NCBI GenBank assembly: GCA_004431415.1
Contig: QPMI01000564.1
Coordinates: 1 to 64,000 of the forward strand
Length of the DNA stretch: 64,000 nucleotides
Direction: 5' to 3'
DNA from: Cyanophora paradoxa CCMP329
Taxonomy: Eukaryota > Plantae > Glaucophyta
Shown: in pieces, positions 15,878 to 64,000 of the stretch
How positions within the stretch are numbered: the first letter of the stretch is position 1
How the letters are laid out: every line of letters begins with the position of its first letter
Translations under genes and position numbers: made by a program
The notes under the pieces: model-generated
What the model was told of the DNA's origin: nothing
Database searches by the model: none
What the model saw: the letters and a program-made list of their open reading frames with translations, nothing else

Positions 15878-16173
15878 ACACATAGAGAAAGCCCGCGTTT
15901 TATCCCTCGGCTAAGTTTAATTATATTTTGTTTATATTTTACCTATATTTATTGCATATTTTACGTATATTTATGTGTATTTATCCTTTATTCTTGTCTT
16001 TTATGTGCGTATTTCGTATAAATTACTAACGTAACCCTTACTGAAATTTAATTTATTCGTATCTCCGATGTATTTTACCTCTATCTCTCGTAATCATTTG
16101 TATTTGAGGTGGATTTTAAACTTATTTAAATTATATCACGCCTCCTGATAAAACGCGGGCTTTCTCTATGTGT
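15878..16173. repeat. Terminal inverted repeat/hairpin of element 1 (27-bp perfect arms, 242-bp AT-rich spacer)
   Basis: ACACATAGAGAAAGCCCGCGTTTTATC (15878-15904) is the reverse complement of 16147-16173. Confidence 0.95.
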
Positions 16174-16465
16174 GATATTACGCATTATCGTGTATAATGA
16201 TATGGAAATAATATGTGTATGCATTATAATGAAATACTTTGAAAAATATGTATTTAATTATACAAGAAATATGTATGAAATTATAATGAAATTCCATCGA
16301 AAAATAATAAAATGTTCTGTGGATTAAATGCGTATCGTATATGGAGCGGATATGGCGCGTTGTAAACAGCTACAATGTGCTGTAAGGAGCGCGTGACGTG
16401 TAATACAATAAGGATATTATAGTATTCTAAATAGATCTTGTGTTATTATAATGGTATTTTCTATG

Positions 16466-16556
16466 TGTAACAGGTGTAACAGGTTCATCCCAAACTTTCC
16501 CCTAGGAGGAGGTCGGCGGTTTGGGAGTTTGGGATAGACCTGTTACACCCGTTACA
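16466..16556. promoter_or_regulatory. Putative origin-like cassette A1: inverted tandem TGTAACAGG iterons
   Basis: TGTAACAGGTGTAACAGG, ~55 bp, then CCTGTTACACCCGTTACA. Repeated at 16698 and 28371. Function is inferred. Confidence 0.55.
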
Positions 16557-16697
16557 ACGTAAACAACTACAATGTGCTGTATGGAACGCGGGGCGTATAA
16601 TACAACAAGGATAATATATGATACTTTATGATTACTTATAGTATTCTTTATGACTGAGATTATGTTATTTTAATGGGTTCTTACTGATAATGGTATT

Positions 16698-16788
16698 TGT
16701 AACAGGTGTTACGGGTTCATCCCAAACTTTCCCCTAGGAGAAGGTCGGCGGCTTGGAACTTTGGGGAGAACCTGTTACACCTGTTACA
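16698..16788. promoter_or_regulatory. Putative origin-like cassette A2
   Basis: Near-identical direct copy of 16466-16556. Confidence 0.55.
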
Positions 16789-17268
16789 CTACACTGAAAA
16801 TACATAAATTAACCTGTTACATCTTCTTTTACCACTTATTACCGTGTCGGAAATCTCGATAGCTTATGTCTCTCCGTTTGCGGAGATCCACCAAAGATAC
16901 CTATTATCCTCTCTTCTATTAAACATGATATATTACATGTCTTTCGCTCCGCTAAAAGAAAAGATCTTTAAACTAAACAGTAAAATCAGTTTATTGAGTA
17001 ATTTATAAAAATAATTTGGTTGTTCATCAATAAACACTTACAGTAAACTGTTTTACTGTCTGTTCTATCGTTAACTCTTTCACATTTTGCGAAAACCTTG
17101 ACAATAAAACACTCAGGTAGCCTGATTTTATTGACAGTAAAAATGAAAGCCTCACTGTATATCGTGCGAAAAATGAAAAGCCCCGTGAGCTACACAAATT
17201 GATTTAAGGAAGTTGTGATATAGAGGGTTAAGAAAGAAAAATATTTTCTGTGTAAGAGATAAGTAACA

Positions 17269-17589
17269 ATGGAACCCGTAGCTGATATACCACCTTTCCG
17301 TGAAAATAACAATAGAATTCGCGCTTACAATATTCCGATAGAAGGAAATCCTGCTTTTTCAGAAATTCTTAAATTAAGTATGTTTGCTAATATGCAAATG
17401 CTAACGGTTATACAAGCTATTGAATTTGGACGACATGGATTCGGTGATGATCTTAAACTTACTCATATCTCATCTATTGGATATTATCCGTCTAATACCA
17501 AAGAAGTATATGTTCATACCTATGATAATCGGTTTTGTCGGCTGTATGAAGATGAAGTAGACAAGATCCGTGCTCCTGCGGAGCACTAA
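17269..17589 (+). CDS. Hypothetical viral protein (106 aa)
   Basis: ATG preceded by the conserved ATTTAAGG...AAAAATATTTTCT motif; AT-rich codons. Confidence 0.7.
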   Translation: MEPVADIPPFRENNNRIRAYNIPIEGNPAFSEILKLSMFANMQMLTVIQAIEFGRHGFGDDLKLTHISSIGYYPSNTKEVYVHTYDNRFCRLYEDEVDKIRAPAEH

Positions 17590-17729
17590 GTACGGCGAAG
17601 CCTCGCGGACGCCCTCGCGGCTGTCACAGTCGGCCTATAGGGCACTGGCCAGCGGCCTGGCCGATCGCGAACAGCTTTCTGGCTGGAAGCTGGCTGGCTG
17701 ACGGCCAGTCCAGCTACTACTGGCCGGCT

Positions 17730-19190
17730 AGAGGAATATAACTAGAGAAATATTAATGTACTGAGGAAATAAAGGGAGGCCGGATCCCGGTGCAGGTTGA
17801 GAGGAGATGCATAATATAATATTGTTGAGAGGGAGGCCCGGAAGGGGCGAGGTTCTCGCGGCCAGGCGCATGCACAGAGCTTGCGAATCGCTTAAACAGA
17901 ATCTCGAATGCATATAGCATCGATGTGCGGGGCTACGGAGGCGAGGGCGCGCGGAAAGACGTGCAGGTCCATGCAGGATCGAATTTTCGGGGTCGGCTGG
18001 GTCCTCGCGCCCTGTCGCGCCCTTGGGGCTTGCATTACGCTTTGAAAAGCTCTCAAATGAATATTATAGCGATGCCCATGCGCAAGAATGCGAGGGCGCG
18101 CGGAAAGCGGTTCAGGTCCCTCAAGGATCGAATTTTCGGGGTCGGCTGGGTCCCCGCGGCCCGGCGCATCTGCAAAGCGTGCGGAACGCTTGATCTACAT
18201 CTCAAATGCTTATGCTATTGTTCCGCGCATGCGCCGCGGCGTGGGCGCGCGGAAAGATGTCCGGGCCCGTGCAGGATCGAATTTTTGCCGCCGGCTGGGT
18301 TCGCGTGCTCTTTCGCGTCTTCGAAGCTTGTGGAAGGCTTTGATAAAATCTCAAATGAATATTGTACCGATGCGCATGCGCAAGAATGCGAGGGCGCGCG
18401 GAAAGATGTTCAGGTCTGTCAAGGATCAAATTTTCGGGGTCGGCTGGGTCCTCGCGGCCTGGTGCATTTAGAGACCGTGCGAAAGGCTTCTTCTACATCT
18501 CAAATGCTTATGCTATTGTTGCGCGCATGCGCCGCAGCGTGAGCGCGCGGAAAGATGTCCGGGCCCGTGCAGGATCGAATTTTTGCCATCGGGTACCTTC
18601 CTGCGCTATTCCGGCTCCAAAAAGCGGATTTCGGGGGTGTGCAGGCGCTGCTATGTGTATGCGCGCCAGTTCGCATCGATTGCGCGCGTCGAGGGACCGG
18701 GCGGGACCGGCTGGATCAATGTTTCGAATTCGGCCGATTCTTCGCACTGGAGCGTCGAGGGCGCCCGAAATCGAGCTTGCGGCGATGCGCTCGCGCTCGC
18801 GCGTCATTCTGTATCGTTCTGGGGCGTCCCTGGCGCGATTTCGTCGCGGGACCGGGCGGGACCGGGTCCCACCTTCTGACTCGCACTGCGTTTGTCGGAG
18901 GTTAAGTACCGGAATTGATCCTGGAGGGAATTCGATTTTCGCGGGACGCCCACGGGAGAGCGGTCGTCTTAGGGGAGCCAGGACGCTAAAAATGGATCTA
19001 GAGAGGTCTGTGGGGGTTAGGGTAGGTGAGTCATTAGCGGCAATCGCGTCCGTGTCGAGGCAGAATTAATAATTCTGCCTCGAGGGAGTGCGACACGGAA
19101 ATTATTTAGCAGGGGGGATCTTGAGTGGAAAAAAAGGTTAAAAAAGGAATTAGGGTCGTCGGTTTTTGGGTTTGAGAAAGAGGCTTCGCC
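17730..19190 (+). repeat. Diverged single copy of the 1.3-kb macrosatellite unit inside element 1
   Basis: GGGGCGAGGTTCTCGCGGCCAGGCGCATG and ~149-bp subrepeats match the 34.6-44.3 kb array. Collinear anchors GAGTGGAAAAAAA and AAGAGGCTTCGCC extend to 19190. Confidence 0.85.
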
Positions 19191-19587
19191 TGATGAGGAT
19201 GTAAGGGTAAACATTGATAATTATCGGAAAATCTTAGACTTAACGGATGTTTTCAATGATGAAATTGAGCTACAAAATGAATTAACATTTCTTTTGGTTC
19301 GTGTAAGGGATTATATAGGTAAAAATGCTCGTCGGCTCGAAATTGAAAGGTTGCTACGTCGGGTTTATCTTGATGTGCCAAAACGTGATCTATCACGTGT
19401 TCATGATAAATTCGAAAAATACGGTTTAGTCATCAGAAGCCGTGTAAGTCTCCGTAAGTTGCTATATAAACATGGTGCAATTTGGACAACACGGACAGGA
19501 TGGTATATAGCCGAAAAAAATGAGAGTAATGAAATACTTGTGGACATTTTCGGTGCGCGGCATTACCCATATATTGATGAGTTTTAG
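19191..19587 (+). pseudogene. Hypothetical protein lacking an ATG (probably 5'-truncated)
   Basis: The frame is open from 19030 to 19587 with no ATG. AT-rich coding-like sequence begins right after the repeat copy. Confidence 0.45.
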
Positions 19588-19688
19588 GCAAAAATTGAAA
19601 GCCCCGTGAGCAACACAAAATGATTTAAGGAAGTTGCGATATATAGGGGTAAGAAAGAAAGAGAAAAATTTTTCCGTGACGTATTACA

Positions 19689-19967
19689 ATGTCGCGTGCT
19701 GAAATGTTTAAGGAGATCTCCGATATCATGGAAGCCGCCGAATACTTCTATAAAGAAAACGATACCCTTTACCCTTCTCTGTCTCAAATTGTGGCGATCG
19801 GTTTTTTAGCTGATAGACCCGACCGACTGTATGCAAAGAGTGATGAAAACCACTTTTTCCACTATCAAAAGCAAACTTTAAAAAGAGGAAAGGTGGAATA
19901 CAACGTTAAAGCACTGTTTAACTTTGGCGGCGAGTTCATCCCTCTTATCGAATTCAAAAACCACTAA
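19689..19967 (+). CDS. Hypothetical viral protein (92 aa)
   Basis: The ~100 bp upstream is a near-duplicate of the region upstream of 17269. Confidence 0.7.
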   Translation: MSRAEMFKEISDIMEAAEYFYKENDTLYPSLSQIVAIGFLADRPDRLYAKSDENHFFHYQKQTLKRGKVEYNVKALFNFGGEFIPLIEFKNH

Positions 19968-20875
19968 TCATTACCTAACGCTAAAAATTCCAATTGGAAC
20001 GAATTATCGATACCGTTCATATCTACAACATCACCGTAATAATCACGAAACTCTACCGTTAACTCATTAATCACCAAATTACGATCGTTTATTTTTATGT
20101 ATTCGCCATGCTCTCCGCTATGGTAGATATACTTCCCGATGTCCTGACTTAATTGTAAACGCAAAATTGCGCCTTGGTTCTGTGGTTGCGATCGTGGAAC
20201 TATGTTATGGTTTGCCGCAAATGTGGCAATTTCTTTAATGTGCATATAAATGTATTGTTCAGCGTTCATATCCGCCATCTTTGGACTAACCCCTTTAAAA
20301 GCCATCGGTGCCGCTACTAACTCCGCTCCCTCGAATGTTATACCCCACTGTGGGTGATCCGGTGTTATCGGAGTCCCCGCATAAAATAAGATATTTTCGG
20401 GAGCATATAAAGACCTATTATTATCTATTATCTGTTCTGCGCTTCCTAATAATGTTGTTGCACTGAGACCCAATAACTTAGCTATCCTATTGTTTCCGGC
20501 GATGAGTTCAAAAGCATAATTACTATAAAACTCTAACTTGTATGTCGTCGGATTGTAGTATATCTTAAATAATATATTGTCAGTAACGGCATAATTTAAA
20601 CCATAATTATATGGCTGTGTCACCCCGAAGTGTCCTTGGTTTATGTTACCACTCGGTAACGGAAATACTTGCTGATTGACATAAACGCCATCAATATTAT
20701 ATCGTATGTAAATAAAATCGGTTCCTATTGAATTATAGATACTGTTCGGAATCTCAGCATACAAAACGCGACATTGCCGCGGTTTGGTTATTCGTCTTGT
20801 GAGTGCAACCCTATAAGAGTTTTCTTTTTGTCCTTGTTGTCGATCTCTACTATCGACATTGATAAGACGAATCAT
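19964..20875 (-). CDS. Minor capsid (penton-like) protein A
   Basis: N-terminal VDSRDR...YAEIPNSIYN and C-terminal DYYGDVVDMNGIDNSFQLEF, as in PLV/NCLDV single jelly-roll minor capsid proteins. Confidence 0.75.
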   Translation of the reverse strand: MIRLINVDSRDRQQGQKENSYRVALTRRITKPRQCRVLYAEIPNSIYNSIGTDFIYIRYNIDGVYVNQQVFPLPSGNINQGHFGVTQPYNYGLNYAVTDNILFKIYYNPTTYKLEFYSNYAFELIAGNNRIAKLLGLSATTLLGSAEQIIDNNRSLYAPENILFYAGTPITPDHPQWGITFEGAELVAAPMAFKGVSPKMADMNAEQYIYMHIKEIATFAANHNIVPRSQPQNQGAILRLQLSQDIGKYIYHSGEHGEYIKINDRNLVINELTVEFRDYYGDVVDMNGIDNSFQLEFLALGND

Positions 20876-20904: not shown

Positions 20905-21915
20905 ATGCCGGTCAAATATGTCGAAGTTTCATCATTTAGACAGGCTCCTAATCTCGATGCGCCGACGTCTAAGTTTATCGCTGAATTACCAAAGATGTAT
21001 GAGAATGTAAGAGCTGTCCGACTTGTTTCGGCGGAATTCTATAACTCCATTCCTCTTATCAGCGGTGAAAGTGTCCCCGGAGATGTCACAGTTAATGATT
21101 CTTTCACTATTAATTTTAGTATCGCTAATTCAGCTATCAACTCTACCAATGCACCCGCTCCCGGTTTCGATGTTTGGCGCTCGATTCGTCCCGGTCAAAG
21201 TAGCGGAAGCTTAGTAATTAATACGCATCAGGAATTAGTAAACCGTATTAATACTCGGTTTACTGGTTTAACACCCGATCCTCAAATTAGGTGTAAATGG
21301 GATACCAAAAATAAACGCGTAATATTCTATGCTCCACATGAATTTTACATAGCATTCACAACTGCTAAGGATCCTTCTAGTTCAATGGCTGAAAAATCAA
21401 ACCGACACGGTCGTATGCTTGGACTCGATGCCGGAAGAGCCGGTAACCGTTTCATCAAATCTAACATTTACTCAACTGAATATGATTCAGTTTTTACCGG
21501 TGCTAATGTTCATGGTATCATCTCTACATTCCCTACTAAGAGTTGCAAAGATAACGTATTATTTGTAAGAGTAAAAGAACTGGGTGACCTCGTTCAATGT
21601 GCCGATGGTCTCCTATCTGGATACTTCCATAAACTCGTGGTGCAAGATAAAGACTTTGCGGAACACGTTGTTTATAACTCAACAGAAGCAAACCCGTTAT
21701 ATAAATATTATGGTAAATCATTCTCTATTTCTCAATTGTCTGTAGAAATTGTGAATGCTCAAAACGAATTAATTGATTTCGAAGGGCAACCTGTGCATTT
21801 AACTTTCGAAATCCGATATGGAAATGAGCCCGCCGGTGATCCTATTTATGAGTATTTCAAAATGCGGATGGCGGAAACGCATCCAAATTATCCGGTGATT
21901 TGCAATTTTGGATAA
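20905..21915 (+). CDS. Minor capsid (penton-like) protein B
   Basis: LPKMYENVRAVRLVSAEFYNS and LSVEIVNAQNELIDFEGQPVHLTFEI; paralogue of protein A. Confidence 0.72.
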   Translation: MPVKYVEVSSFRQAPNLDAPTSKFIAELPKMYENVRAVRLVSAEFYNSIPLISGESVPGDVTVNDSFTINFSIANSAINSTNAPAPGFDVWRSIRPGQSSGSLVINTHQELVNRINTRFTGLTPDPQIRCKWDTKNKRVIFYAPHEFYIAFTTAKDPSSSMAEKSNRHGRMLGLDAGRAGNRFIKSNIYSTEYDSVFTGANVHGIISTFPTKSCKDNVLFVRVKELGDLVQCADGLLSGYFHKLVVQDKDFAEHVVYNSTEANPLYKYYGKSFSISQLSVEIVNAQNELIDFEGQPVHLTFEIRYGNEPAGDPIYEYFKMRMAETHPNYPVICNFG

Positions 21916-21966: not shown

Positions 21967-23367
21967 ATGGACGTCACCACAACCCTCCAACGTCTTTCCC
22001 TCAAAGAGGCGCTAACCACCCCCGAAGACGCGAAGGCGTTCTTCCTCGATAACTCGCTTATGCTTGGTCTGGAATCGAAGACTAAACCCGTTCTCGTTAC
22101 TGTTAGCCCATCGACAACCTTCCCTAACAACGCTGCGCAACGAGTAAGTTTCAAACTTCCACGTTACAACTTTATCGGTAAGCTGGAACTCGCTTTCGAT
22201 CTAAGCGAAATTGCGGGTTTCATCGGTGATACCGATCTTGTTCGTAATGGTTATGTGCGCCCCGTCGGCGCTCTCGTAGAGCGTCTGGAAATCTCGTATG
22301 GCTCTTACCTTTTCACTGTGCCTTCTGATTTCCTCGCTCACTTCCCTCTGGTTTATTATTCGGAGGATCAGCTAGCGAAAAAGAAACGTTCGGCTGGTTT
22401 CCTACACGGCATCCCACAACACGGAACTAACCGACTTGGTGGGTCATTCTTTGTGGAAATCCCGGTGCCATGGTTAAATAGTTACCTACCCCTTGGCGCG
22501 CTCTCAGGTGAAATGGTAGTTACCGCATGGTTCCGTGACCCCGCTAAGGGTGGATTCATTGAGACTTCTTATGGTGGTCGCGCTCTTCCGGTTGTAGGTG
22601 GAACCGCTGCCGATCAAACCGCTAATGACGGTCTCGGAGACGCTACTTATGTAACCCTTGCTAATGTCGGTCAAAACATCACAACTGGAACCATTACCGG
22701 TCTGTCCATTCCATCATCTGCACCTGTGGATACTATTATGATCACCAACCCACGCCTTTACATGCATGCTGTCAATGTTTCCGATGAGCTGTTCGCTACG
22801 GTCATTGAGAAGGTTAAGACTACTGGTATTGCGATCCCGGCTATCGACATCGGCTACGTCGATGCTTTCGATGTTGCCGCCAACGGCAACAACCAACCCA
22901 ACCGTATTAACATTAGCCAAATGTCGGGGCTTGCTTTCGCTCTTCTATTCTCGGTTCGTGACTACCTTAAAACCGGTCAGGATAACAGCGGCTCCCACAG
23001 TGTCCTTAAAACATATGCGGACTCGAAGGATATCACATACACTGTGGAGATTAACGGACAGCGTCTTTATTCCACGGAGCCTATCCCACTCCTCAAAGGT
23101 GCGGAACTCATCGCTGATGCATTCAAGTGTTCGAATATGGACAAGGAAGCTAACCGCTATGTCCTGTCCGGTCTTCCGTTCTGTCTGGACGGAGAGAAGG
23201 CGATTCGTAACATCGCCCAAAGTGGTTATGTCGATCTAACTAACTCCTCATCAAGTTTCCTTACCCTCTACGTCCCACAAAACATGCGCCTTACTGTTAA
23301 CGTGCGCGCTCTCATGCACACTATGTTAATTTGTGATCGCGACGGTCTCAGGCGAGTCAATCTCTAA
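21967..23367 (+). CDS. Major capsid protein (probable double jelly-roll)
   Basis: 466 aa, beta-rich. VSFKLPRYNFIGKLEL resembles the NCLDV/PLV MCP N-terminus. Lies between penton and ATPase; homologue at 56806. Confidence 0.75.
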   Translation: MDVTTTLQRLSLKEALTTPEDAKAFFLDNSLMLGLESKTKPVLVTVSPSTTFPNNAAQRVSFKLPRYNFIGKLELAFDLSEIAGFIGDTDLVRNGYVRPVGALVERLEISYGSYLFTVPSDFLAHFPLVYYSEDQLAKKKRSAGFLHGIPQHGTNRLGGSFFVEIPVPWLNSYLPLGALSGEMVVTAWFRDPAKGGFIETSYGGRALPVVGGTAADQTANDGLGDATYVTLANVGQNITTGTITGLSIPSSAPVDTIMITNPRLYMHAVNVSDELFATVIEKVKTTGIAIPAIDIGYVDAFDVAANGNNQPNRINISQMSGLAFALLFSVRDYLKTGQDNSGSHSVLKTYADSKDITYTVEINGQRLYSTEPIPLLKGAELIADAFKCSNMDKEANRYVLSGLPFCLDGEKAIRNIAQSGYVDLTNSSSSFLTLYVPQNMRLTVNVRALMHTMLICDRDGLRRVNL

Positions 23368-23449
23368 TAAAGAATGTATGTGTTTGTTACCATTATTTAG
23401 TCATATTTCGTTATTTTTATCTGTCTTTATTCAGAAGATCTACAACACC

Positions 23450-24992: not shown

Positions 24993-25019
24993 ATATATCT
25001 GATTAATAAAGGATTCTCG

Positions 25020-25268: not shown

Positions 25269-25292
25269 AATATTTGTAATAAGTATCGGAAA

Positions 25293-55486: not shown

Positions 55487-56905
55487 ATGCGCGAGTATCT
55501 CAGCATCAGTAGCCGTGATCGATCAGAGGGCTCGGCTCATTCCTATAAGGTGACCCTTCCAAAGCAATACCACAATGTGAAGAGCATCGCTGTGCGACAG
55601 ATCGAATTTTCCAACACGATTCCGACGGTTCCAAGCCCTCAATTCTATACTGAAATCGGGGAGACGAAAGCCGATGATGCTAATACGATTTTCATATCAT
55701 TTCCTTACCGATTTTCGAGTGGACAGCTCAATGGTGCCACTGAGCAAATAAGAGAAACACAAGCGACTGCAATATATGACGCTTACAAAGCCATAGATGC
55801 TGGCGACCAAGGCAACTATATACCGCCTGATTACCTAAACACTTTCAGAAGATATACCCGATACAGAGACGTAGCAATTACGATCCCTCCGGGCACATAC
55901 TCGACTGGAACCGACCTTGCCACTGCAATCGATAACATCTTAACGAAAAATGGAACTGGCAACTACATCAAGGATATGATCGACACAAAAATTAATCCAA
56001 GCTACGCATCGACAGGAGGAACCTTTTACCCGGTGGTGAGATGTCGTTTTGAGAGCACATTAAATGCTATATGCTTTTATTCGAGTGATTATGTCTACAT
56101 AGCTTTCACGAAATATGGACCGAGTAATGCCACTGCGTCTACTGCGAATGAAAGAAAGGTGCTCGCCTATCGCACGATGACTCTTCTCGGGTTTACATCG
56201 ATCAGAGAGAATATAATGATAGATCAATACAACGGATCGGGCTACACAGCCTTCGCTGGGAGCGGTGTCGTTTACTCAGCTGGTGATGCATTCCGCAATT
56301 ATAATTCGACGGCTCTGGTCTTAGGCATAGCCGGAGGCACTGCCCCTGATTATACACCGGATAATGCAATAGTTTTAAAGATCACAGAGCCGGACTGCTC
56401 GCTTTTTACGACATGCACCGAGGCTACTAATGGATTCCTCGCTAAGATCCCGATTTCGAAAGGCACAGCCTATGCGGATGCTGAGCTAATTAATTATGGG
56501 GCGGATGCTTTCACGAAATACTTTAACACCCGCCTCTCCTTTGATAGTTTAACCGTTCAAATTCTCACGGAGAGCGGTTATAGGTATTTCCTCGGAAGCT
56601 GTGAGCACACATTCATTTTGGAAATTACTATGGGAGTGGATGAGCCCGACGACGATTTACAGCGCATTGTTAATAAGGGATTCGCGAAAATGCTATATGA
56701 GGACTACCCGCATTGCGGCAATTTAACGAATGCGTTGAGCGGGGTGGCTGTAAAAATAATCCGTTCTTCTAAAATAAATTTCTCAGCGGAAGATAAAAAC
56801 GAAATATGGATCCCACGACCTCGCTTAGCCGCCTCACGCTCAAATCCGTCCTGGAAACCCCGGAGGACTACAAGAGCATGCTTTTGGATCGCGGATTTAT
56901 CGTAG
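55487..56905 (+). CDS. Penton-like protein B homologue (true stop probably near 56730)
   Basis: ISSRDR...LPKQYHNVKSI...IEFSNTIP and HTFILEI. The read-through overlaps the MCP gene, suggesting an indel. Confidence 0.72.
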   Translation: MREYLSISSRDRSEGSAHSYKVTLPKQYHNVKSIAVRQIEFSNTIPTVPSPQFYTEIGETKADDANTIFISFPYRFSSGQLNGATEQIRETQATAIYDAYKAIDAGDQGNYIPPDYLNTFRRYTRYRDVAITIPPGTYSTGTDLATAIDNILTKNGTGNYIKDMIDTKINPSYASTGGTFYPVVRCRFESTLNAICFYSSDYVYIAFTKYGPSNATASTANERKVLAYRTMTLLGFTSIRENIMIDQYNGSGYTAFAGSGVVYSAGDAFRNYNSTALVLGIAGGTAPDYTPDNAIVLKITEPDCSLFTTCTEATNGFLAKIPISKGTAYADAELINYGADAFTKYFNTRLSFDSLTVQILTESGYRYFLGSCEHTFILEITMGVDEPDDDLQRIVNKGFAKMLYEDYPHCGNLTNALSGVAVKIIRSSKINFSAEDKNEIWIPRPRLAASRSNPSWKPRRTTRACFWIADLS

Positions 56906-58254
56906 GTGTGGACAAACAATTCAAGCCTTCTCGTGTGGAGGTGCTTCCAATTGCGGATCCCGGCAATCTGTTCTCCTCTACTGGTGCTACCACTCGTGTG
57001 GTCTTCTATCTCCCTCGCTACAATTGGTGCAATGGTATTAGCCTCCAAGTTACCATTCCGTCGGCGAAGGCGCTGACTGCCATCGCCAAGACCTCGGCTG
57101 ACTGCTCGGCTGATCTATTCAATACTGGATTCGTCCGCGGGCTTCCTGGCTCGTTTGTTCAGCGAGTCAGCATTAAATACGGGTCGTATGAGCAAATTAT
57201 TCCGGCTGAGCGACTGGTAGATTACGCTTTCCTGGCTAACACTCCGGCTGAATTCGACCAAAAGAAGCGCAAGCATGGGCTGCATCTCGGACCGAAGGTA
57301 GAGGGCGGCAACCAAGCTGGCGGCATTTTTACCATGCGAATTCCGAGTTTCCTCGATGCTGGCGTGCCCATCGGTGCGCTCCCATCCGAAATCGCGGTCG
57401 AAGTATATTTCCAAACCCCTGCGCTTCTCGAAACTGCGGCGGTTCCTGGCGTTTACGCTCAGAATAACACGACTGCAATTACTGCTGCCAATTCGACTGA
57501 TGGCGAGACGACGCTTGCTGTTGCGGCTGCTTTCGGAAATATTAAGACCTTAGCCCACCCTAATGCCACTGCGATTTTCGATAGTGCGGCTCTCACACCT
57601 ACACCTGCTCTTGCGAATCTGGAAATGACGACCCCTCGTCTTATTATGGATGCTGTTAACATCGATGAGGAAACGATGGGCGAAATCATTACTCGTGTTA
57701 AGACCTCTGGCATCGCCATCCCATACACTGATATTCAGTTTGCGGATTATACCGGTCAAGCTCTCGGCTCCGGTCTCCGCCTGTCACTATCTCAAATTTC
57801 TGGACTTGTTTACGCACTTGTTGTCAAGATTCGCGACGAAAACACACTCGGCGATAATAAAGGAGGGCACTCTACTGTTCGCACCCTTGCTTTCGATGAT
57901 AATGTCGTGATGCAAGTCCTAAACAACAACAATTACCTATATTCTAACACTGGTGTCCCGCTGCAATCCGCGGCTATGGAGCTCGCCGATAAATTCAAGA
58001 TGACTAACTGGATCGATAGCAACAAGCGCCCCATTTACACTGGCTTCTGCTTTGCTCTCGATGGTAAAGCGGCGCTCAAAGGTGAGAAGGCGACTGGCTA
58101 CGTCGATCTAACACAATCAGCTTCAAGTTTCCTGCTGCTCACACCAAATGGCACGCCCCTCGCCACCTGGACAAAGGTCGGTGTTCAGATTTCGGCTTAC
58201 TGCCACAACATTCTTGTAATGAATGCCAATGGATTGTCTAGAGTGACGGCATGA
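56806..58254 (+). CDS. Major capsid protein (probable double jelly-roll)
   Basis: Similar to 21967 over its full length (LPRYN, KTSGIAIP, GYVDLT.S.SSFL). Confidence 0.75.
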   Translation: MDPTTSLSRLTLKSVLETPEDYKSMLLDRGFIVGVDKQFKPSRVEVLPIADPGNLFSSTGATTRVVFYLPRYNWCNGISLQVTIPSAKALTAIAKTSADCSADLFNTGFVRGLPGSFVQRVSIKYGSYEQIIPAERLVDYAFLANTPAEFDQKKRKHGLHLGPKVEGGNQAGGIFTMRIPSFLDAGVPIGALPSEIAVEVYFQTPALLETAAVPGVYAQNNTTAITAANSTDGETTLAVAAAFGNIKTLAHPNATAIFDSAALTPTPALANLEMTTPRLIMDAVNIDEETMGEIITRVKTSGIAIPYTDIQFADYTGQALGSGLRLSLSQISGLVYALVVKIRDENTLGDNKGGHSTVRTLAFDDNVVMQVLNNNNYLYSNTGVPLQSAAMELADKFKMTNWIDSNKRPIYTGFCFALDGKAALKGEKATGYVDLTQSASSFLLLTPNGTPLATWTKVGVQISAYCHNILVMNANGLSRVTA

Positions 58255-58328: not shown

Positions 58329-59051
58329 ATGGCGTATCTCGAACAAATGGAAGGGATCAGGCGAATCGCTTTGTGTGGAAAGCATGGCGAGGGCAAGTAT
58401 GCGCTTATAGATGAAGCCGATTATGATCATGTCATGAAAATAAGCAAGTGGTATTACCATAACCAACGGGGATATGCATGGGGTTACATTGCTGGTGTAA
58501 AGAAAAACATCGACATGCACAAATGGATTTTCGGACATCAACAAGGGCACTTTGTTGATCATATCAGTAGAGACAAACTCGATAATCGTCGCTGTAATCT
58601 TAGATTCTTAACACCGCAAGACAGCGTATTTAATACGGGTATGAGAAAACGAAACAAAACTGGTTTCAAAGGTGTTTTCCAAGAGAAAAGAACCGGTCGG
58701 TTCAGGGCAAATATTCAAAAAAGTGGTGTCCCATACAATTTGGGAACGTTTGATACAAAAGAAGAAGCTGCTGCCGCTTACAACCAAAAAGCAAAAGAGC
58801 TATTTGGAGATCTTGCTGTTTTGAATGAGGTAAACCCTGAAATTAAACCAAAACCTCCTCTTTACTCACTGAATACAAGTGGATTTCGTGGTGTGACTGA
58901 AACAGCGACTGGAAAATGGGAAGGATGCTTTTCATATAAGAAACAGCGGTGGCGAAAAGTGTGCAACACAAAGGAGGAGGCTGCACTTTTCTACAACTCA
59001 AAAGCCAAAGAAATTCTCGGTGATAAAGCGATCCTCAATGATGTTGAGTAA
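58329..59051 (+). CDS. HNH endonuclease with two AP2 domains
   Basis: VDHISRDKLDNRRCNLR; GFKGV...LGTFDTKEEAAAAYN; second SGFRGV...EEAALFYN. Confidence 0.92.
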   Translation: MAYLEQMEGIRRIALCGKHGEGKYALIDEADYDHVMKISKWYYHNQRGYAWGYIAGVKKNIDMHKWIFGHQQGHFVDHISRDKLDNRRCNLRFLTPQDSVFNTGMRKRNKTGFKGVFQEKRTGRFRANIQKSGVPYNLGTFDTKEEAAAAYNQKAKELFGDLAVLNEVNPEIKPKPPLYSLNTSGFRGVTETATGKWEGCFSYKKQRWRKVCNTKEEAALFYNSKAKEILGDKAILNDVE

Positions 59052-59107: not shown

Positions 59108-60031
59108 ATGACTGGAAACGTGAGTATAGAAGATCTTGCGGAATTCGACCCGGCAAGTCTTTCATTCCCTTGCCGTTTACTTGCTGTCGGAAAAACGGGA
59201 GTAGGTAAGTCAGTATTCTTAAAATACCTGCTTTACCACAACGAGGACAAGATAGATTCGGTGATGATATTCGCTTCCACGATCTGGAACCATCAATATG
59301 ACAATGTCACATCGTATTTGTATGAGGATTTCGATCATAAGCTGATCGACAATATAATACAGAAACGCAAGGAGCGAATCAAGAAAAAGGAGAAAGTCGG
59401 TAACCTGTTAATCATACTCGATGATTTCATTGACAATCCAAGTCTTTCGATGTCAGGAAGAGGTGAACCTATATTAAATCAGCTATTCACGTCGGGGCGC
59501 CATTTATTCATATCTGTGTGGATTCTGTCACAAAAACTCACTAAGATTTCGCCGACACTTAGGGTTAACTCCGAATATATCTTTCTATTCTCGCTGCCCA
59601 ACAGAAAAGAGATGGAGAGTGCTGAGGACGAGTTTAATCCATACGAAAAGCATTGGTTTGAGAAGGTGATGAACGAATACAGTCACAGCTATCAGGTTAT
59701 CTGCATTGACAACTCGAAATATAGCCTGGAATTCTCTGTGGGCAAGGCTGATCCGGTGCCTGACGAATATAAATTCAAGCGGTTCTTTAAAAAAGCGGTG
59801 GAAGAGATAAAGCCCGCTGGTAAACAGCCGGTAAAACAGAGCTCCACAGAGGTAAATGGCGACCAACCCCAAACCACCGATATAACGAAACCTGTGAGTG
59901 GAAACGTCGCCACCTTAAAGCGATCCACCAAAAGAATAATCGAAGCCGACCTACTTAAAGACCCCAATCTATTGCTGGCATACCAAGAAAAGCGCCGCCC
60001 AAAATTTGCAAAGAAATTGGGTAAATTTTGA
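59108..60031 (+). CDS. A32-like packaging ATPase
   Basis: GKTGVGKS, IILDD, GRH, LSQ and LRVNSEY. Confidence 0.9.
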   Translation: MTGNVSIEDLAEFDPASLSFPCRLLAVGKTGVGKSVFLKYLLYHNEDKIDSVMIFASTIWNHQYDNVTSYLYEDFDHKLIDNIIQKRKERIKKKEKVGNLLIILDDFIDNPSLSMSGRGEPILNQLFTSGRHLFISVWILSQKLTKISPTLRVNSEYIFLFSLPNRKEMESAEDEFNPYEKHWFEKVMNEYSHSYQVICIDNSKYSLEFSVGKADPVPDEYKFKRFFKKAVEEIKPAGKQPVKQSSTEVNGDQPQTTDITKPVSGNVATLKRSTKRIIEADLLKDPNLLLAYQEKRRPKFAKKLGKF

Positions 60032-60054: not shown

Positions 60055-60726
60055 ATGCCACCCAAGAACTCGCGGAAAGCTATCCAAATGGAAGATCAAA
60101 GCGCTGTTGTCGCTGGCAAGATCAATCCTGCGGAGGATGCCGGTCGCACTGGTGGTGCTGCCGCTTCTGACCAAATAGATTTCGATCTGATTGACCCGAA
60201 TACAAAGGTTTCAGAGCGTGCTCAAAAGGCGGATGCTAAGCGGGAGCCGGTCGATTCCACTGATAGAAAGCTGGCGGATCAATCCCTCGCCGAATCACAG
60301 CTCACAGGCGAAAAGCTAACCGATAATAAGGTGGTAAAAGCCGAAGCAACAGCCGCTTTACCTGCATCGATGGAAGCCCCTAAAAAGCGGGCATCTGTCT
60401 ATGTGACCAAGGGCGAGAAAGTCGGTCAGGAATTAGAGGAGAAGTTTAGGGCACTGGAAGCGCGTTTAGCTACATACGACACTACTGTGCGAGCCTTTGA
60501 TGATTTCACTAAGGAATACAAACAGCGCAAGCTGATTAAACAAGCTGTTCGCGTGGAAATGGAAAAGAAGCGGGCAACTGTTCCCGATGTTCAGACAGTC
60601 GAAAGAAAAGAGACAGTCATAGCTGAAAATGCACCAAAGCCGGGCGGTTTCGTTAACCCATCGGGTGTGCATGCACAGCCGGGTGCCAATCTGTCATCTA
60701 TGTTCGGTGGGCGTCGTCGCTTCTAA
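60055..60726 (+). CDS. Hypothetical coiled-coil protein (homologue of 24261)
   Basis: MPPK start, KFRALEAR and PDVQ..RKE segments, same position in the gene order. Confidence 0.75.
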   Translation: MPPKNSRKAIQMEDQSAVVAGKINPAEDAGRTGGAAASDQIDFDLIDPNTKVSERAQKADAKREPVDSTDRKLADQSLAESQLTGEKLTDNKVVKAEATAALPASMEAPKKRASVYVTKGEKVGQELEEKFRALEARLATYDTTVRAFDDFTKEYKQRKLIKQAVRVEMEKKRATVPDVQTVERKETVIAENAPKPGGFVNPSGVHAQPGANLSSMFGGRRRF

Positions 60727-60877
60727 TGTGCAAGTCGTTCAAACATAAATGAATCCGCCCGTATTTAGAGCGGGTCTTAATATGAATTCCCTTGCAAAAG
60801 GGACAGGTCGGCTCCACAAACACCATTATAAGGTCGACTAATTCGTATGGGAACAGGCGAGCAAGTAACACCCTCAT
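60698..60877 (-). CDS. Small CxxC protein (homologue of 32326)
   Basis: FPYELVDLIM...TCPFC. Confidence 0.7.
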   Translation of the reverse strand: MRVLLARLFPYELVDLIMVFVEPTCPFCKGIHIKTRSKYGRIHLCLNDLHIRSDDAHRT

Positions 60878-60925
60878 TCCTTTTCTTTTCTCCAATATTT
60901 AATACGTTGTGCAATATTAGGGTCG

Positions 60926-61150
60926 ATGAATTTCATCACACAATGCATTGAGATGTTTCACCTGCATTTCATATCTCACTGTAAGTCCGGATGCTGCGAC
61001 ACAACCGTAGAGTTTGACATTTCGGACGAGGATAATGGAGGTAGGCGATCATCTGTATATTCCAACCACAGTGATAATCACGATCGTCCCCGATCTCAAT
61101 CGCCCTCGCCTGTGCCTGCGAACTCCAATATAGTCCACAGACAGCAATAG
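60926..61150 (+). CDS. Small CxSGCC protein (homologue of 25020)
   Basis: IEMFHLHFISHCKSGCCDTTVE. Confidence 0.8.
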   Translation: MNFITQCIEMFHLHFISHCKSGCCDTTVEFDISDEDNGGRRSSVYSNHSDNHDRPRSQSPSPVPANSNIVHRQQ

Positions 61151-61299
61151 AAGACGTGCAAGTATCCTATATAAGACGCCGCTCGTGCCCTAATTCCGTG
61201 GAAGGTCATTTTCGCGTTGATTCCCCGTATCCGCCAATAAATCCGCTTTATTTGGGCGAATACGATCGCTGAAACTATTTTCGCGTTAAATAGTATCGA

Positions 61300-61439
61300 A
61301 TGCCCGACCCCGATCTCTACGCGATCCTATACAGGAAACGCGCGCAATACGCATTGGAAGTCGCTATTAAAAACGTAGAGAAGAACTCGCTTCGATCACA
61401 AAAAATGACAGCTCAGAAAATGATTTAAAGAAGAAATAG
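61300..61439 (+). CDS. Short ORF homologous to 25293 (probable one-base indel in an A-run)
   Basis: LYAILYRKRAQYALEVAI; adding one A gives KKRREEL...KND. Confidence 0.45.
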
Positions 61440-61489
61440 GAAATACGACTGATAAAATATTTTCTCCGCTTATAGTAAGGAACGAAAAG

Positions 61490-61720
61490 ATGACCACCAT
61501 CGCTGCTGTAAATATTGAGGCAAAGCTTGTCACTGAGGACATGAAGAAAGGCGACGGACTTAATTATCGGATCCGTGAAATCATCAAAATGCGGAATCGG
61601 TATAACGAGGATCCCGAATATCGCGAATTCAAGAAGAAGATGGCTTTGGAATCGTATTATCGTCGCAAAGCCGAGGAGGGGAGCCATATGGGAAAGCGGG
61701 GGCGCCCCCGTAAGTATTAG
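61490..61720 (+). CDS. AT-hook DNA-binding protein (homologue of 25471)
   Basis: DGLNYRIRE...DPEYREFKKK...KRGRPRKY. Confidence 0.8.
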   Translation: MTTIAAVNIEAKLVTEDMKKGDGLNYRIREIIKMRNRYNEDPEYREFKKKMALESYYRRKAEEGSHMGKRGRPRKY

Positions 61721-61930
61721 AAAACGCAAACTCTCGATTGCCGCTGAGCGCATTCCTTATTTTTCGTGCGGCTTTCCGATGTAAATCGGGAAGCTCCTTA
61801 CCATACTATCGATTGCCCCGATGCTAATCGATTTTATCATCGGGAAAAAACTGTAAAGGGATTTAAGGATAATGCGCAAAAAATGAACAACCTGAAAAAT
61901 ATTTTCTCCGCTTAGAGTAAAACAGAGAAG

Positions 61931-64000
61931 ATGGACGCTATCACGAAATTCGCATTCTCTAATGTCAAGGGCACCTTTCTGAAATGTCTGACTGGTTCTC
62001 GCAATACGTCTAATTTGGTTGAGTTAACCGATGATGAAATTATTGAGCGCATCAATAACTCAAAGAAACGGGACAATATGACCTATCCTACATGGGCGGA
62101 ATGCATACAACCTGATCAAGTGACTCGTGTTTATCTGGATCTGGACAAGTTCGTTGATCTGAAACCTGATGTAGCCGACAACTATAAGGAAGCCGAAGAG
62201 ATCATCAGGGAAATGCGCAAGAAATTGCAAACCCTGTCGGGATCTACAATTGCGGTTGCTGTTCGCCATCGCCGGGTTCATTTAATCAAAGAGAATGTCA
62301 CTAAGTTCAAGATTTCCGGGCATTTCGTATTTACCGATCTGGCCTGCCGCCACGAAGACATTCCAAAGCTTTTTAAAGCGATGGGTCTCATCAAAAATGT
62401 TGAATTCGATAGTGGCGTTTATGGAACAACTCAAAACCTGATCTGCCTCCGTTGCTGCAAAGGCGAAGCTTTGGACGCTCAAAGCAAATCAAAGCACGAT
62501 GTCGATAAGAATGTGGTGTTCACTAAGTTTATTGATTGCGAGAAAGAAGGCATGCACGATGGTTTTTTCCTGGTGCAATGTTTCGATCGCCCCACTAAGT
62601 GGGTGGAAGTAGACACCATGTCAGCCTTTGCGGTCGATAAACCAAAGGAAGCTACAAAGCCTGAGGAACCTAAGCAAACGGTGGCGCCCAAGTCTGTTAA
62701 GGACAAGCCCTGTAAAGAACCTGTGAAGAAGAAGGAGGAGGTGTTGGAGGATCTCAAAGATAATAAGGTTTCGTTTGAACTGTTGCAAGAAGTCATTATG
62801 AGCCTCAGTGGCGAGCGAGCTAATGAATATAAGACATGGATCGACGTAGGTATTGCTATAATCAATACTTGCGAAGACAACAATATCCCTCGCAAGCAAC
62901 AAGTAGAGCTATTTCATAAGTTCTCGGAGAAAAGCGAAAAATATGAATATGATGACTGTCATGAGAAGTTCATGAGCCTTTGCAAAGGCAAGAAAATGGT
63001 GGAAGGGAAGCGAGTCACATTCGGTTCGATTGTTTACTGGCTGAAAAAGGATAACAGCGACAGTTATAATAAGCTATTCCCCAAGAAATATTCGTTTCAG
63101 CCTGAGGATTCCGACGATATTGACTACAAGACTGCCCCCATTCCACCTATGGTCGATAGCTTTGAAGTCCATCTGCGATATTTAAATGCGAGGCTGCATC
63201 ACATCGAGAGCATCGGCACTGTCATGTATTGGGATGAACAGCTATTATCCTGGCGACCGAAAGATATTACGAAATTGGCGACCAAACATTTTCCCCATCT
63301 GTTTCACAAGGTGATTCTCAATGAGGGGACTGAGAACCAAACCGAAAAGTGGGTAAAAACGCTACCTGAATGGATTACTGACCCAAGGGCGACACGATCC
63401 ACTTATATGGATTTCCTGCCGCCTCCTGCAAAGCTGAGCGCGAAATGCAAGTCTGTGTTTAATCTCTACCCTGGATTCAAGATTGATCATGAAGAATTCG
63501 AGGAGCCGCCCCCCGAGGATGTGACAGAAGAGATGATTCAGCCTTTTCTGACACATCTATATTTAATGTCAGGCGAAGATGATAAGACATTCGATTATCT
63601 TAAAAAGTGGTTTGCCCACATGATGCAAAAGCCGGGGGAACTAAATAACGTGTCCCTCATCTTCCTAGGTCGCCAAGGCGCTGGAAAGAATATGCTCATT
63701 GATACCTTTGAGAAGAAGATCCTCGGTGATGCATTGGCATACTCGACAGCCAAACCAAAGGATGATCTATTCGGGCGATTTGCTCACAATCGGGAGGATA
63801 AGATTATGATTGTGGTAAATGAAGCTTCTGGAAAGGATACCTTTGAACATAGCGACCTTCTCAAAGATATTGTCACAGCCCCGAAGATTGTAATCGAGCA
63901 CAAGGGAATCGATTCTTATGATAAGACGAATTTCGCGCGAATCGTTTTCACAAGCAACAATACTGTCCCTGTCAAGATCGAGGCTGATGATCGTCGCTTT
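61931..64000 (+). CDS. AEP primase + PriCT-2 + DUF5906/NrS-1-like SF3 helicase (runs off the window, absent from the ORF track)
   Basis: Manual translation: MDAITKF..., VYLDLD, KISGHFV, FDSGVYG, YKTWIDVGIAI, Walker A GRQGAGKN, IVVNEA, VFTSNN. Confidence 0.88.
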   Translation, partial: MDAITKFAFSNVKGTFLKCLTGSRNTSNLVELTDDEIIERINNSKKRDNMTYPTWAECIQPDQVTRVYLDLDKFVDLKPDVADNYKEAEEIIREMRKKLQTLSGSTIAVAVRHRRVHLIKENVTKFKISGHFVFTDLACRHEDIPKLFKAMGLIKNVEFDSGVYGTTQNLICLRCCKGEALDAQSKSKHDVDKNVVFTKFIDCEKEGMHDGFFLVQCFDRPTKWVEVDTMSAFAVDKPKEATKPEEPKQTVAPKSVKDKPCKEPVKKKEEVLEDLKDNKVSFELLQEVIMSLSGERANEYKTWIDVGIAIINTCEDNNIPRKQQVELFHKFSEKSEKYEYDDCHEKFMSLCKGKKMVEGKRVTFGSIVYWLKKDNSDSYNKLFPKKYSFQPEDSDDIDYKTAPIPPMVDSFEVHLRYLNARLHHIESIGTVMYWDEQLLSWRPKDITKLATKHFPHLFHKVILNEGTENQTEKWVKTLPEWITDPRATRSTYMDFLPPPAKLSAKCKSVFNLYPGFKIDHEEFEEPPPEDVTEEMIQPFLTHLYLMSGEDDKTFDYLKKWFAHMMQKPGELNNVSLIFLGRQGAGKNMLIDTFEKKILGDALAYSTAKPKDDLFGRFAHNREDKIMIVVNEASGKDTFEHSDLLKDIVTAPKIVIEHKGIDSYDKTNFARIVFTSNNTVPVKIEADDRRF

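What the first reader, a model, noticed from the sequence alone, without database searches (positions are those of the whole stretch)
15878..64000. Candidate new family of endogenous capsid-encoding (PLV-type) viruses nested at one locus
Seen: two divergent elements share the order penton A(-), penton B(+), MCP, A32 ATPase, MPPK protein, CxSGCC protein, short ORF, AT-hook protein, primase-helicase. They also share a fibre N-terminal domain and the left-end motif AAACA(A/G)CTACAATGTGCTG (~16364, 16561, 47167). Established: jelly-roll capsids plus an A32 ATPase define Polintons, PLVs and virophages. Inference: double pentons, an NCLDV-like MCP start, hairpin ends and swappable replication genes do not fit canonical Polintons. 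Novelty cannot be confirmed without searches.
Basis: partly seen in the sequence, partly recalled or inferred. Interest (0 to 1): 0.85.

Follow-up and report, generated by a model that had tools for sequence, protein, structure and literature searches.

The report
Twin-penton endogenous viruses of glaucophyte alga
Two related small DNA viruses sit side by side in the genome of a freshwater alga, sharing a predicted giant-virus-like shell with two vertex proteins and a fold-back end but carrying different copying enzymes; their shell genes were already catalogued in 2023, but the lineage appears never to have been named or described.

Summary
Two divergent elements share the module penton A(-), penton B, MCP, A32 ATPase, three small conserved genes plus a short ORF, and a primase-helicase. 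They also share a fibre N-domain and a palindrome followed about 190 nt later by the motif. The host is Cyanophora paradoxa or a very close relative. The MCP1 model is a double jelly-roll (Z 28.9 to PBCV-1); the penton A model is a single jelly-roll (Z 15.9). The family is not undiscovered: Bellas 2023 lists a near-identical MCP among 366 in this alga, outside its named groups, and Bulzu 2025 tallies 156 elements. Each 'odd' trait has a precedent: two pentons, terminal palindromes, two replicases, tandem insertion. What this work adds: an isolated MCP lineage (6 hits in 1.8 billion proteins), a palindrome starting at the host junction, inverted repeats bracketing the capsid-primase core, a proofreading-dead pPolB beside an SF3 helicase, and depth ratios that suggest recent module swapping. 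Nesting is unproven: no right end or target duplication was found. Placement against the named MCP profiles was not testable. This scan noted similar mosaic, palindrome-ended elements elsewhere in this genome.

The parts
13298..15877 (-). Host LINE (endonuclease + RT), cut off inside its endonuclease domain by element 1; flank, not part of the virus
   Evidence: RVT_1 E 2e-19; 96% identical to residues ~140-997 of a 1604-aa C. paradoxa LINE protein, similarity starting at the codon that ends at 15877
15878..16173 (.). E1 terminal palindrome: 27-bp perfect arms around an AT-rich 242-nt spacer; starts at the LINE junction (plus or minus 1 nt)
16362..16835 (+). Two tandem units of motif + ~95-nt imperfect palindrome; likely origin or subterminal repeats
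   Evidence: 72% direct repeat; fold z -6; motif at 16364 and 16561
17169..19660 (+). Optional cassette between 71-bp direct repeats: ORF 17269-17589, inserted 149-bp-subunit repeat (~17.6-19.0 kb), ORF remnant 19030-19587
   Evidence: repeat 90%; joint 17155->19589 in both DNA runs
19689..19967 (+). 92-aa ORF, no family match
19964..20875 (-). E1 penton A, predicted single jelly-roll
   Evidence: model pLDDT 60; Z 15.9 to a PBCV-1 capsid chain, 11.2 Sputnik 3j26_N, 10.6 mavirus penton
20905..21915 (+). E1 penton B, likely paralog of penton A; not folded itself
   Evidence: hhalign A versus B: probability 37.6%, E 3e-4; shared N-terminal pattern
21967..23367 (+). E1 major capsid protein, predicted double jelly-roll
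   Evidence: pLDDT 68; Foldseek E 5e-19; Z 28.9 PBCV-1, 15.7 Sputnik
23378..24232 (+). E1 A32 packaging ATPase
   Evidence: Pox_A32 E 5e-11
24261..25746 (+). E1 conserved cassette: MPPK protein 24261-24992, CxSGCC protein 25020-25268, short ORF 25293-25418, AT-hook-like basic protein 25396-25746
   Evidence: homologous to the E2 cassette; no family match for the three scanned
25928..28267 (+). E1 Prim-Pol / D5_N / SF3 primase-helicase
28322..28570 (-). Inverted copy of the second left-end unit (16594-16835); brackets the capsid-primase core
   Evidence: local score 212 versus shuffled maximum 44; 83% over 159 nt
28861..32141 (+). Polinton-type pPolB with vOTU Cys/His, an endonuclease-VII-like insert and intact polymerase motifs; all three exonuclease motifs altered and ~100 aa missing; frame break near 31.8 kb
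   Evidence: short-read contigs of both DNA runs differ by one base there
32472..32747 (-). Zinc-finger / endonuclease-associated small ORF
   Evidence: phrog_681 E 2e-10
32765..34472 (-). Two paralogous likely fibre genes (32765-33610, 33630-34472) with the shared N-domain; E1 is cut at ~34506
   Evidence: loose ends at 34506 in both DNA runs
34507..44350 (.). Tandem array of a ~1.3-kb GC-richer repeat, the same family as the 17.6-19.0 kb insert; not viral
   Evidence: no Pfam match in the 5 repeat-region ORFs scanned
44400..46800 (.). Virus-type segment of uncertain ownership: E1-type repeat relics (44543, 44592), 63-bp repeat shared with 48339, 32-bp tandem repeat, AdoMet decarboxylase 45970-46362 (+), DUF5710 46387-46701 (-)
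46900..46972 (.). E2 palindrome, 29-bp perfect arms and 15-nt loop; likely left end
   Evidence: downstream alignment with the E1 end scores 83 versus shuffled maximum 69
47166..48240 (+). Motif + three ~115-nt imperfect palindromes, different in sequence from those of E1
48579..54468 (-). E2 fibre-like genes: 48579-49637 (shared N-domain + S74 chaperone), 49659-51113 (repeats), 51151-54468 (1105 aa, hydrophobic stretch near the C-end)
   Evidence: Peptidase_S74 E 8e-17; PHROG tail-fibre matches for the first
54487..55385 (-). E2 penton A, in pieces in the window
   Evidence: single-base differences at 54780 and 55318 in short-read contigs
55487..56905 (+). E2 penton B (frame break near 56.75 kb)
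56806..58254 (+). E2 major capsid protein (not folded; homologous to MCP1 over its length)
58329..59051 (+). HNH-AP2 endonuclease, likely a homing insertion
   Evidence: HNH_3 and AP2; lower contig depth than the capsid genes
59108..60031 (+). E2 A32 ATPase
   Evidence: Pox_A32 E 1e-10
60055..61720 (+). E2 conserved cassette: MPPK 60055-60726, CxSGCC 60926-61150, short ORF 61300-61428, AT-hook-like 61490-61720
61931..64000 (+). E2 primase-helicase (PriCT_2 + SF3), runs off the window

Best explanation
These are two divergent integrated members of a multi-copy, unnamed polinton-like virus lineage of Cyanophora that share a predicted double jelly-roll capsid module with two likely pentons and likely exchange their replication, fibre and accessory genes by recombination between neighbouring copies. 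Shown: the gene homologies, the palindrome at the host junction of E1, the inverted repeats around the E1 core, the different replicases, and many variant copies in two DNA runs. Predicted: the MCP1 and penton A folds. Inferred: (a) after excision the primase-SF3 helicase copies the genome, with the terminal palindrome folding back as a primer and the repeated ~100-nt palindromes acting as origins; (b) the ATPase packs DNA into a capsid whose vertices use both pentons and carry interchangeable fibres attached by the shared N-domain; (c) integration uses an rve integrase encoded in the missing right parts or supplied by sister copies; (d) E1 is a ~12.7-kb primase-type core joined to a pPolB-fibre module, whose polymerase would be error-prone and lean on the helicase, as proposed for mavirus; (e) activation by a co-infecting giant virus is plausible by analogy only.
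For: MCP1 model: PBCV-1 Z 28.9 (rmsd 2.9, 338 aligned), faustovirus 27.0, Sputnik 15.7, mavirus 15.2. Penton A model: Z 15.9 (rmsd 2.8, 141 aligned); the best non-viral row is 5.7. Pox_A32 in both elements. Bellas 2023 Table S2 lists a 465-aa C. paradoxa MCP with about five differences from MCP1 in the 400 residues shown (compared by eye), and Table S4 gives 366 MCPs in two clusters (272 + 94) under 'Iterative HMM searches'. Bulzu 2025 Table S6, of 156 glaucophyte elements: PLV-type ATPase profile 107, NCLDV-type 1, protease 0, rve 85, tyrosine recombinase 0, AdoMetDC 66, PF03175 pPolB 49, D5_N 40, HNH_3 40, S74 37, PriCT_2 15, Prim-Pol 8; the window's own accessory domains are in that list. 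Contig depth relative to a zero-difference low-depth contig, two DNA runs: E2 capsid genes about 21-30, E2 primase about 9-11, HNH about 7, E1 MCP about 6-8, E1 primase about 4-5; rough, but alike in both runs. pPolB: the ExoI aspartate is present in 7 of 7 references that cover it and the ExoII and ExoIII aspartates in 8 of 8, and all are absent here, while polymerase motifs A, B and C are kept. Krupovic 2024 links exonuclease loss to helicase gain.
Against: No integrase was found in the visible parts: Pfam scans of the main ORFs and 62 minor viral-region frames of 75 aa or more gave none; both elements are incomplete. No right terminus or target duplication was seen, so element limits and nesting are open. 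The structural matches are all to Nucleocytoviricota first, and the Atlas's nearest clusters for a sister MCP are mostly Nucleocytoviricota-labelled, with Capsid_N on 12-18% of members (recognition score low). Penton B and MCP2 were not folded, and the A-B profile match is modest (37.6%). The models are of moderate confidence (pLDDT 68 and 60). Contig depth is by the tool's own warning no copy number. Bulzu's 156 elements pool both MCP clusters. Hairpin priming is untested here and in the precedent, whose authors also offer accidental annealing. The AdoMetDC-DUF5710 segment has about the same depth as E2 (24-32), which also fits the E2 palindrome being internal.
Confidence: 0.78

Rival explanations
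1. The elements belong to the Nucleocytoviricota-related continuum (mriyavirus, Zora or Zephyr type): dwarf relatives of giant viruses that would replicate on their own in the nucleus.
For: Best structural matches of both MCP1 and penton A are PBCV-1, iridovirus and faustovirus proteins; HHpred in Bellas 2023 gives an iridovirus MCP at 98.5% for a sister protein; Atlas neighbours. Zephyr-type PLVs have NCLDV-related capsids with variable replicases and few mriyavirus genes.
Against: No VLTF2, VLTF3, HUH or RuvC match in the visible ORFs. Most Polinton/PLV MCPs model closer to NCLDV capsids anyway. In Bulzu's table 107 of 156 ATPases fit the PLV profile and 1 the NCLDV profile. A pPolB is present, while mriyaviruses lack a DNA polymerase. 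A Zephyr-like placement remains open and would change the label more than the mechanism.
Confidence: 0.13
2. The locus is a pile-up of decayed pieces shuffled by host repeats; the palindrome at the LINE junction is a break point of a cruciform, not a functional end, and the copies spread only inside the genome.
For: E1 is cut at ~34506 and carries a repeat insertion; a 9.8-kb repeat array splits the locus; the rest of the LINE was not found; there are frame breaks in four genes; the pPolB exonuclease is eroded.
Against: The capsid, ATPase and helicase frames are open. At the four breaks short-read contigs of both DNA runs carry one more base (all or about half of the depth), so the breaks are likely assembly errors or peculiar to this copy. 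The end structure is conserved between elements whose MCPs are only 39% identical. Polymerase and vOTU catalytic residues are kept.
Confidence: 0.09

Closest known systems
Cyanophora paradoxa endogenous viral elements of Bellas et al. 2023 (PMC10120064, Tables S2/S4) and Bulzu et al. 2025 (PMC12220804, Table S6)
   Same: Near-identical MCP listed; same host; same accessory domains (A32, pPolB, D5_N, PriCT_2, Prim-Pol, HNH_3, S74, AdoMetDC); no protease.
   Different: Counted in tables only: no name, gene order, end structure, double penton or polymerase defect is described in the text I read. Most of their elements carry rve; none is visible here.
Halocafeteria seosinensis endogenous virophages and PLV subtype 4 (bioRxiv 10.64898/2026.07.28.741278)
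   Same: Terminal palindromes next to the host junction, linked to non-pPolB replicases; some elements with pPolB plus D5 primase-helicase; tandem and nested clusters near LINEs.
   Different: Other host and capsids; there TIRs, TSDs and rve are shown. Here the palindrome arms flank a loop of 15 or 242 nt and are followed by repeated ~100-nt palindromes.
Tandem/mosaic polisuviruses (Barth, Ha, Aylward, bioRxiv 10.64898/2026.10.13.758929)
   Same: Syntenic tandem capsid modules with different replicases; internal repeats that separate a replicase from the capsid module; endonucleases nearby; one example is EVE_QPMI01_83.
   Different: No glaucophyte capsid lineage is named; here the inverted repeats enclose capsid plus primase and leave the pPolB outside.
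Trimcap group B and Zephyr/VC40 PLVs (Bellas & Sommaruga, bioRxiv 10.64898/2026.06.19.733378)
   Same: Two penton genes in several Trimcap B members; NCLDV-related capsids with variable replicases in Zephyr.
   Different: One MCP per element here, not three; Zephyr has no known endogenous members; placement untested.
Mavirus (exonuclease-less pPolB plus separate SF3 helicase; Krupovic 2024, PMC11161782)
   Same: Polymerase without working proofreading motifs beside an SF3 helicase.
   Different: This pPolB is polinton-type (32-40% identical in the polymerase part to IMG/VR relatives), keeps an eroded exonuclease fold with a nuclease-like insert, and the MCP is not virophage-like; likely convergent.

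Membership tests
PLV in the broad sense (Bellas & Sommaruga 2026) | Double jelly-roll MCP | tested here: met
   Predicted for MCP1, Z 28.9 to PBCV-1; MCP2 by 39% identity
PLV in the broad sense (Bellas & Sommaruga 2026) | Penton (mCP) | tested here: met
   Penton A model Z 15.9, 11.2, 10.6 to capsid vertex proteins; penton B only by weak profile match
PLV in the broad sense (Bellas & Sommaruga 2026) | A32-like ATPase | tested here: met
   Pox_A32 above cut-off in both
PLV in the broad sense (Bellas & Sommaruga 2026) | Small genome (15-45 kb), often with integrase and TIRs | tested here: inconclusive
   E1 at least 18.6 kb, E2 at least 17 kb; right ends missing; no integrase match in visible parts
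Aquintoviricetes or any named PLV group (PgVV, TSV, GKS2/3, Trimcap, Zephyr, Zora) | MCP matches the group's profile and ATPase branches with it | not testable with these tools
   Profiles not held. Indirect: Bellas 2023 lists both C. paradoxa clusters outside its named groups; 2 of 156 match Bulzu's MCP-POL profile
Polintoviricetes (Maverick-Polintons) | pPolB | tested here: met
   E1 only; exonuclease motifs lost
Polintoviricetes (Maverick-Polintons) | rve integrase | tested here: inconclusive
   None in visible parts; elements incomplete; 85 of 156 in the host's elements
Polintoviricetes (Maverick-Polintons) | Adenain-type maturation protease | tested here: inconclusive
   No Pfam match in visible parts; 0 of 156 in Bulzu's table, which argues against membership
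Virophaviricetes (Roux 2023, PMC9952930) | Virophage-like MCP | tested here: not met
   Z 15.7 Sputnik and 15.2 mavirus against 28.9 PBCV-1; the ICTV profiles themselves were not run
Virophaviricetes (Roux 2023, PMC9952930) | Virophage cysteine protease | tested here: inconclusive
   As above; not seen, elements incomplete
Mriyaviricetes (Yutin 2024, PMC11253617) | VLTF2, VLTF3, RuvC, HUH endonuclease | tested here: inconclusive
   No Pfam match in visible ORFs; family-specific profiles not held; elements incomplete
Mriyaviricetes (Yutin 2024, PMC11253617) | No DNA polymerase | tested here: not met
   E1 carries a pPolB, although it lies outside the inverted-repeat-bracketed core

The most novel reading that the evidence does not exclude
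A deep, class-level lineage of double jelly-roll viruses between polinton-like viruses and giant viruses, so far tied to glaucophytes, with a two-penton vertex like that of large viruses, linear genomes closed or primed by terminal hairpins, joining to the chromosome at the foot of the hairpin without its own integrase, and a plug-in proofreading-dead polymerase that acts as a mutator module.
Probability: 0.15. Interest if true: 0.75.

Novelty: new variant of a known kind. Interest (0 to 1): 0.42.

Why it matters
Glaucophytes are an early branch of the plastid-bearing eukaryotes, and I recall no cultured glaucophyte virus (own knowledge, not searched). Bellas 2023 estimates about 7% of this genome as such elements, yet my searches found no description of them. 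A cultured host with many near-intact copies makes three open questions testable: whether terminal palindromes prime replication, how replicases are swapped between neighbouring proviruses, and where NCLDV-like small capsids branch. The concepts are already in print, so this is a good model system and a lineage to name, not a new kind of element.

Tried and rejected
DNA-pattern scans for relatives found none for the MCP in IMG/VR (28 stretches, 0 confirmed) or JGI metagenomes (0 of 91), for the ATPase (0 of 600), for the full pPolB (0 of 2), for distant MCP P0008 (0 of 1), or for the end motif (0); these scans reach close relatives only. Sequence search of the PDB with the MCP profile and with the pPolB gave nothing real. 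The pPolB had no tblastn match in plasmids or phages. No RNA holder was listed, and RNA-type contigs did not cover the capsid genes; this is no evidence on expression. The Atlas did not answer for MCP1 or the CxSGCC protein. ORFs 17269 and 19689 are not detectably paralogous (z 2.2). No tree was built, because no named PLV reference set was at hand; the 3 ATPases on pPolB-neighbour loci matched at 22-31% only. No complex prediction was run. Rejected: the 296-bp E1 palindrome as a separate MITE, because its arm and downstream sequence align with the E2 end; the internal inverted repeat as the full right end, because it lacks the motif and terminal palindrome; the four frame breaks as evidence of decay. 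Searches of earlier scan notes by sequence, by place 'near' and by words found nothing on this family's MCP or ends.

Full report
Setting. The window has a GC-rich left part (satellite and LINE, 63-78% GC) and an AT-richer right part from 15.9 kb. The LINE protein at 13298-15883 is the representative of a 90% cluster whose four named members are Cyanophora paradoxa proteins, and the only relative of MCP1 in the word-indexed search is a C. paradoxa protein at 58%. The host is therefore C. paradoxa or a very close relative.

Observation. Both elements carry penton A(-), penton B, MCP, ATPase, MPPK, CxSGCC, a short ORF, an AT-hook-like gene and a primase-helicase. All pairs align far above shuffles except the primase-helicases (z 1.0). 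E1's enzyme is Prim-Pol/D5_N/SF3 and E2's is PriCT_2/SF3. E2 has an extra HNH-AP2 gene after the MCP. The fibre N-domain is shared by two E1 genes and one E2 gene, but the fibres lie right of the core in E1 and left of it in E2. The 19-nt motif occurs three times exactly and once with three mismatches, with none expected by chance.

Capsid. An HMM of three MCPs found 6 proteins at E up to 0.001 among 1.84 billion representatives, 2 of them at E up to 1e-30; Pfam does not recognise the MCPs. The MCP1 model (8 sequences, pLDDT 68) matches iridovirus and PBCV-1 capsids at E about 5e-19 and NCLDV MCPs in BFVD. VIA-align gives Z 28.9 for PBCV-1, 27.0 faustovirus, 19.0 PRD1, 15.7 Sputnik and 15.2 mavirus. 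The penton A model (pLDDT 60) matches PBCV-1 capsid chains at Z 15.9 and 15.5, Sputnik 3j26_N at 11.2 and the mavirus penton at 10.6, against 5.7 for the best non-viral row. Penton B was not folded; the A and B profiles align at probability 37.6%, E 3e-4. The NCLDV-like fold does not by itself set the family apart: Bellas 2023 says MCPs of other Polintons and PLVs model closer to NCLDV capsids.

Ends. Comparison with a full-length LINE protein places the break at the codon ending at 15877, and the left arm of the E1 palindrome starts at 15878. E1's arms are 27 bp around 242 AT-rich nt; E2's are 29 bp around 15 nt. In both, the motif follows 190-193 nt later and then come repeated ~100-nt palindromes of unrelated sequence. 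A ~245-bp inverted copy of E1's second unit lies right after its primase gene (score 212 against a shuffled maximum of 44), so a 12.7-kb capsid-primase core is bracketed and the pPolB and fibres lie outside. E1 stops at ~34506, where contigs of both DNA runs continue into other sequence. The segment 44.4-46.8 kb holds short E1-type repeat relics, an E2-type repeat, AdoMetDC and DUF5710; its owner is unclear. With no right end and no target duplication, 'tandem cluster' is shown and 'nested' is not.

Copies. Twenty of 24 listed runs hold half or more of E1's words. Laying 2 DNA-type and 3 RNA-type runs shows hundreds of variant sites. At the four frame breaks (31797, 54780, 55318, 56751) contigs of both DNA runs have one more base, at all or about half of the depth, so the breaks are likely assembly errors or private to this copy. 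Using a zero-difference contig (depth 76.8 and 24.4) as the unit, single contigs give ratios of about 21-30 for E2 capsid genes, 9-11 for its primase, 7 for the HNH, 24-32 for AdoMetDC-DUF5710, 6-8 for the E1 MCP, 4-5 for its primase and 6-7 for the pPolB. The tool warns that depth is no copy number and I chose the unit contig myself, but both runs agree. The pattern suggests that near-identical capsid modules sit beside other replicases elsewhere. A joint 17155->19589 (ratio about 20) shows the cassette between the 71-bp repeats is absent from many relatives.

Polymerase. Eight IMG/VR loci encode relatives. Seven of 7 that cover ExoI have its aspartate and 8 of 8 have those of ExoII and ExoIII; the window's protein has none of them and lacks ~100 aa, while motifs A, B, C and the vOTU Cys/His are intact (motif names from my own knowledge). 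Krupovic 2024 reports exonuclease loss with helicase gain in mavirus and Tlr1-type PLVs, so this looks like an independent case of a known trend.

Prior art. Bellas 2023 (main-text part 2 of 7, passages, supplement rows) lists six C. paradoxa MCPs in Table S2. One differs from MCP1 at about five places in the 400 residues shown (by eye; HHpred 94% to a Pyramimonas virus MCP), and one is P0001 (98.5% to an iridovirus MCP). Table S4 counts 366 MCPs in two clusters under 'Iterative HMM searches'; I could not tell which cluster holds the window's MCPs, and the main text does not mention the alga. Bulzu 2025 (passages, supplement part 33) tallies 156 elements with the same accessory domains, rve in 85 and no protease. 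Bellas & Sommaruga 2026 (parts 1-3 of 5) report two pentons in Trimcap B and NCLDV-related PLV groups and do not mention glaucophytes in the main text; their supplements and profiles were not seen and could place this family. Barth 2026 (parts 1-3 of 5, section 13) describes tandem modules with swapped replicases, including EVE_QPMI01_83. The Halocafeteria preprint (passages, section 7) describes terminal palindromes and proposes hairpin priming. Yutin 2024, Roux 2023, Krupovic 2024 and the Oxyrrhis paper were seen as passages. Searches pairing the host with these viruses found no paper that describes this family; subscription journals are mostly not covered. Earlier scan notes on this genome (unchecked) led me to the Barth and Halocafeteria preprints and report similar mosaic and palindrome-ended elements on other pieces.

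Mechanism and verdict. The best reading (0.78) is a multi-copy PLV-type provirus lineage with a stable capsid cassette and exchangeable replicase, fibre and accessory modules. It likely replicates from palindromic ends and origins by a primase-helicase, and likely integrates by an rve supplied from missing parts or sister copies. The steps from excision to virion are inferred. It works like a PLV. It is not a virophage by MCP, not a mriyavirus by its polymerase, and not a canonical Polinton by its likely lack of protease. Membership of a named PLV group could not be tested. Novelty: new variant of a known kind, detected before but apparently undescribed. Interest 0.42.

Noticed in passing
window 28861-32141: pPolB with all three exonuclease motifs altered and ~100 aa missing between the FxDS block and ExoIII, but intact polymerase motifs and vOTU Cys/His; none of 8 IMG/VR relatives shows this.
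   Followed up: yes
window 34295-34441 and 51204-51508: RNA-type contigs (kind guessed) match parts of fibre-like genes at about 90% (1.4-kb contigs in two studies) and 96% (one contig of depth 2.8): a weak hint that related copies are transcribed.
   Followed up: no
window 17.6-19.0 kb and 34.5-44.35 kb: A ~1.3-kb repeat built of 149-bp subunits, very high depth in DNA runs, inserted once in E1 and arrayed about seven times between the elements; its edges match short parts of 1.8-kb and 5.5-kb RNA-type contigs. No Pfam match. Possibly a non-autonomous mobile element.
   Followed up: partly
window 3000-12400: GC-rich (77%) satellite of ~318-bp units, at least 26 copies, with strong G skew, running into the 3' part of the LINE.
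   Followed up: no
window 620-1174 and 2135-2699: A 98% identical 565-bp direct repeat containing a ~90-nt imperfect palindrome, enclosing ~960 bp without a known domain; LTR-like or split-repeat element.
   Followed up: no
window 48532-49212: The S74 fibre region has the lowest depth and no differences in both DNA runs, with joints across it: this fibre seems unique to this copy.
   Followed up: partly
window 48394 -> 45948: A joint in run X15 shows sister copies in which the 63-bp repeat leads straight to the AdoMetDC gene, suggesting that 44.4-46.8 kb is the left part of a third element or that E2's gene order differs among copies.
   Followed up: partly
window 19055-19083: A 29-nt near-perfect palindrome at the right edge of the repeat insertion.
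   Followed up: no
P0008-P0011, P0013: Distant MCP relatives (19-23% identity) on ENA/Logan contigs of 1-15.5 kb; hosts and neighbours unknown.
   Followed up: no
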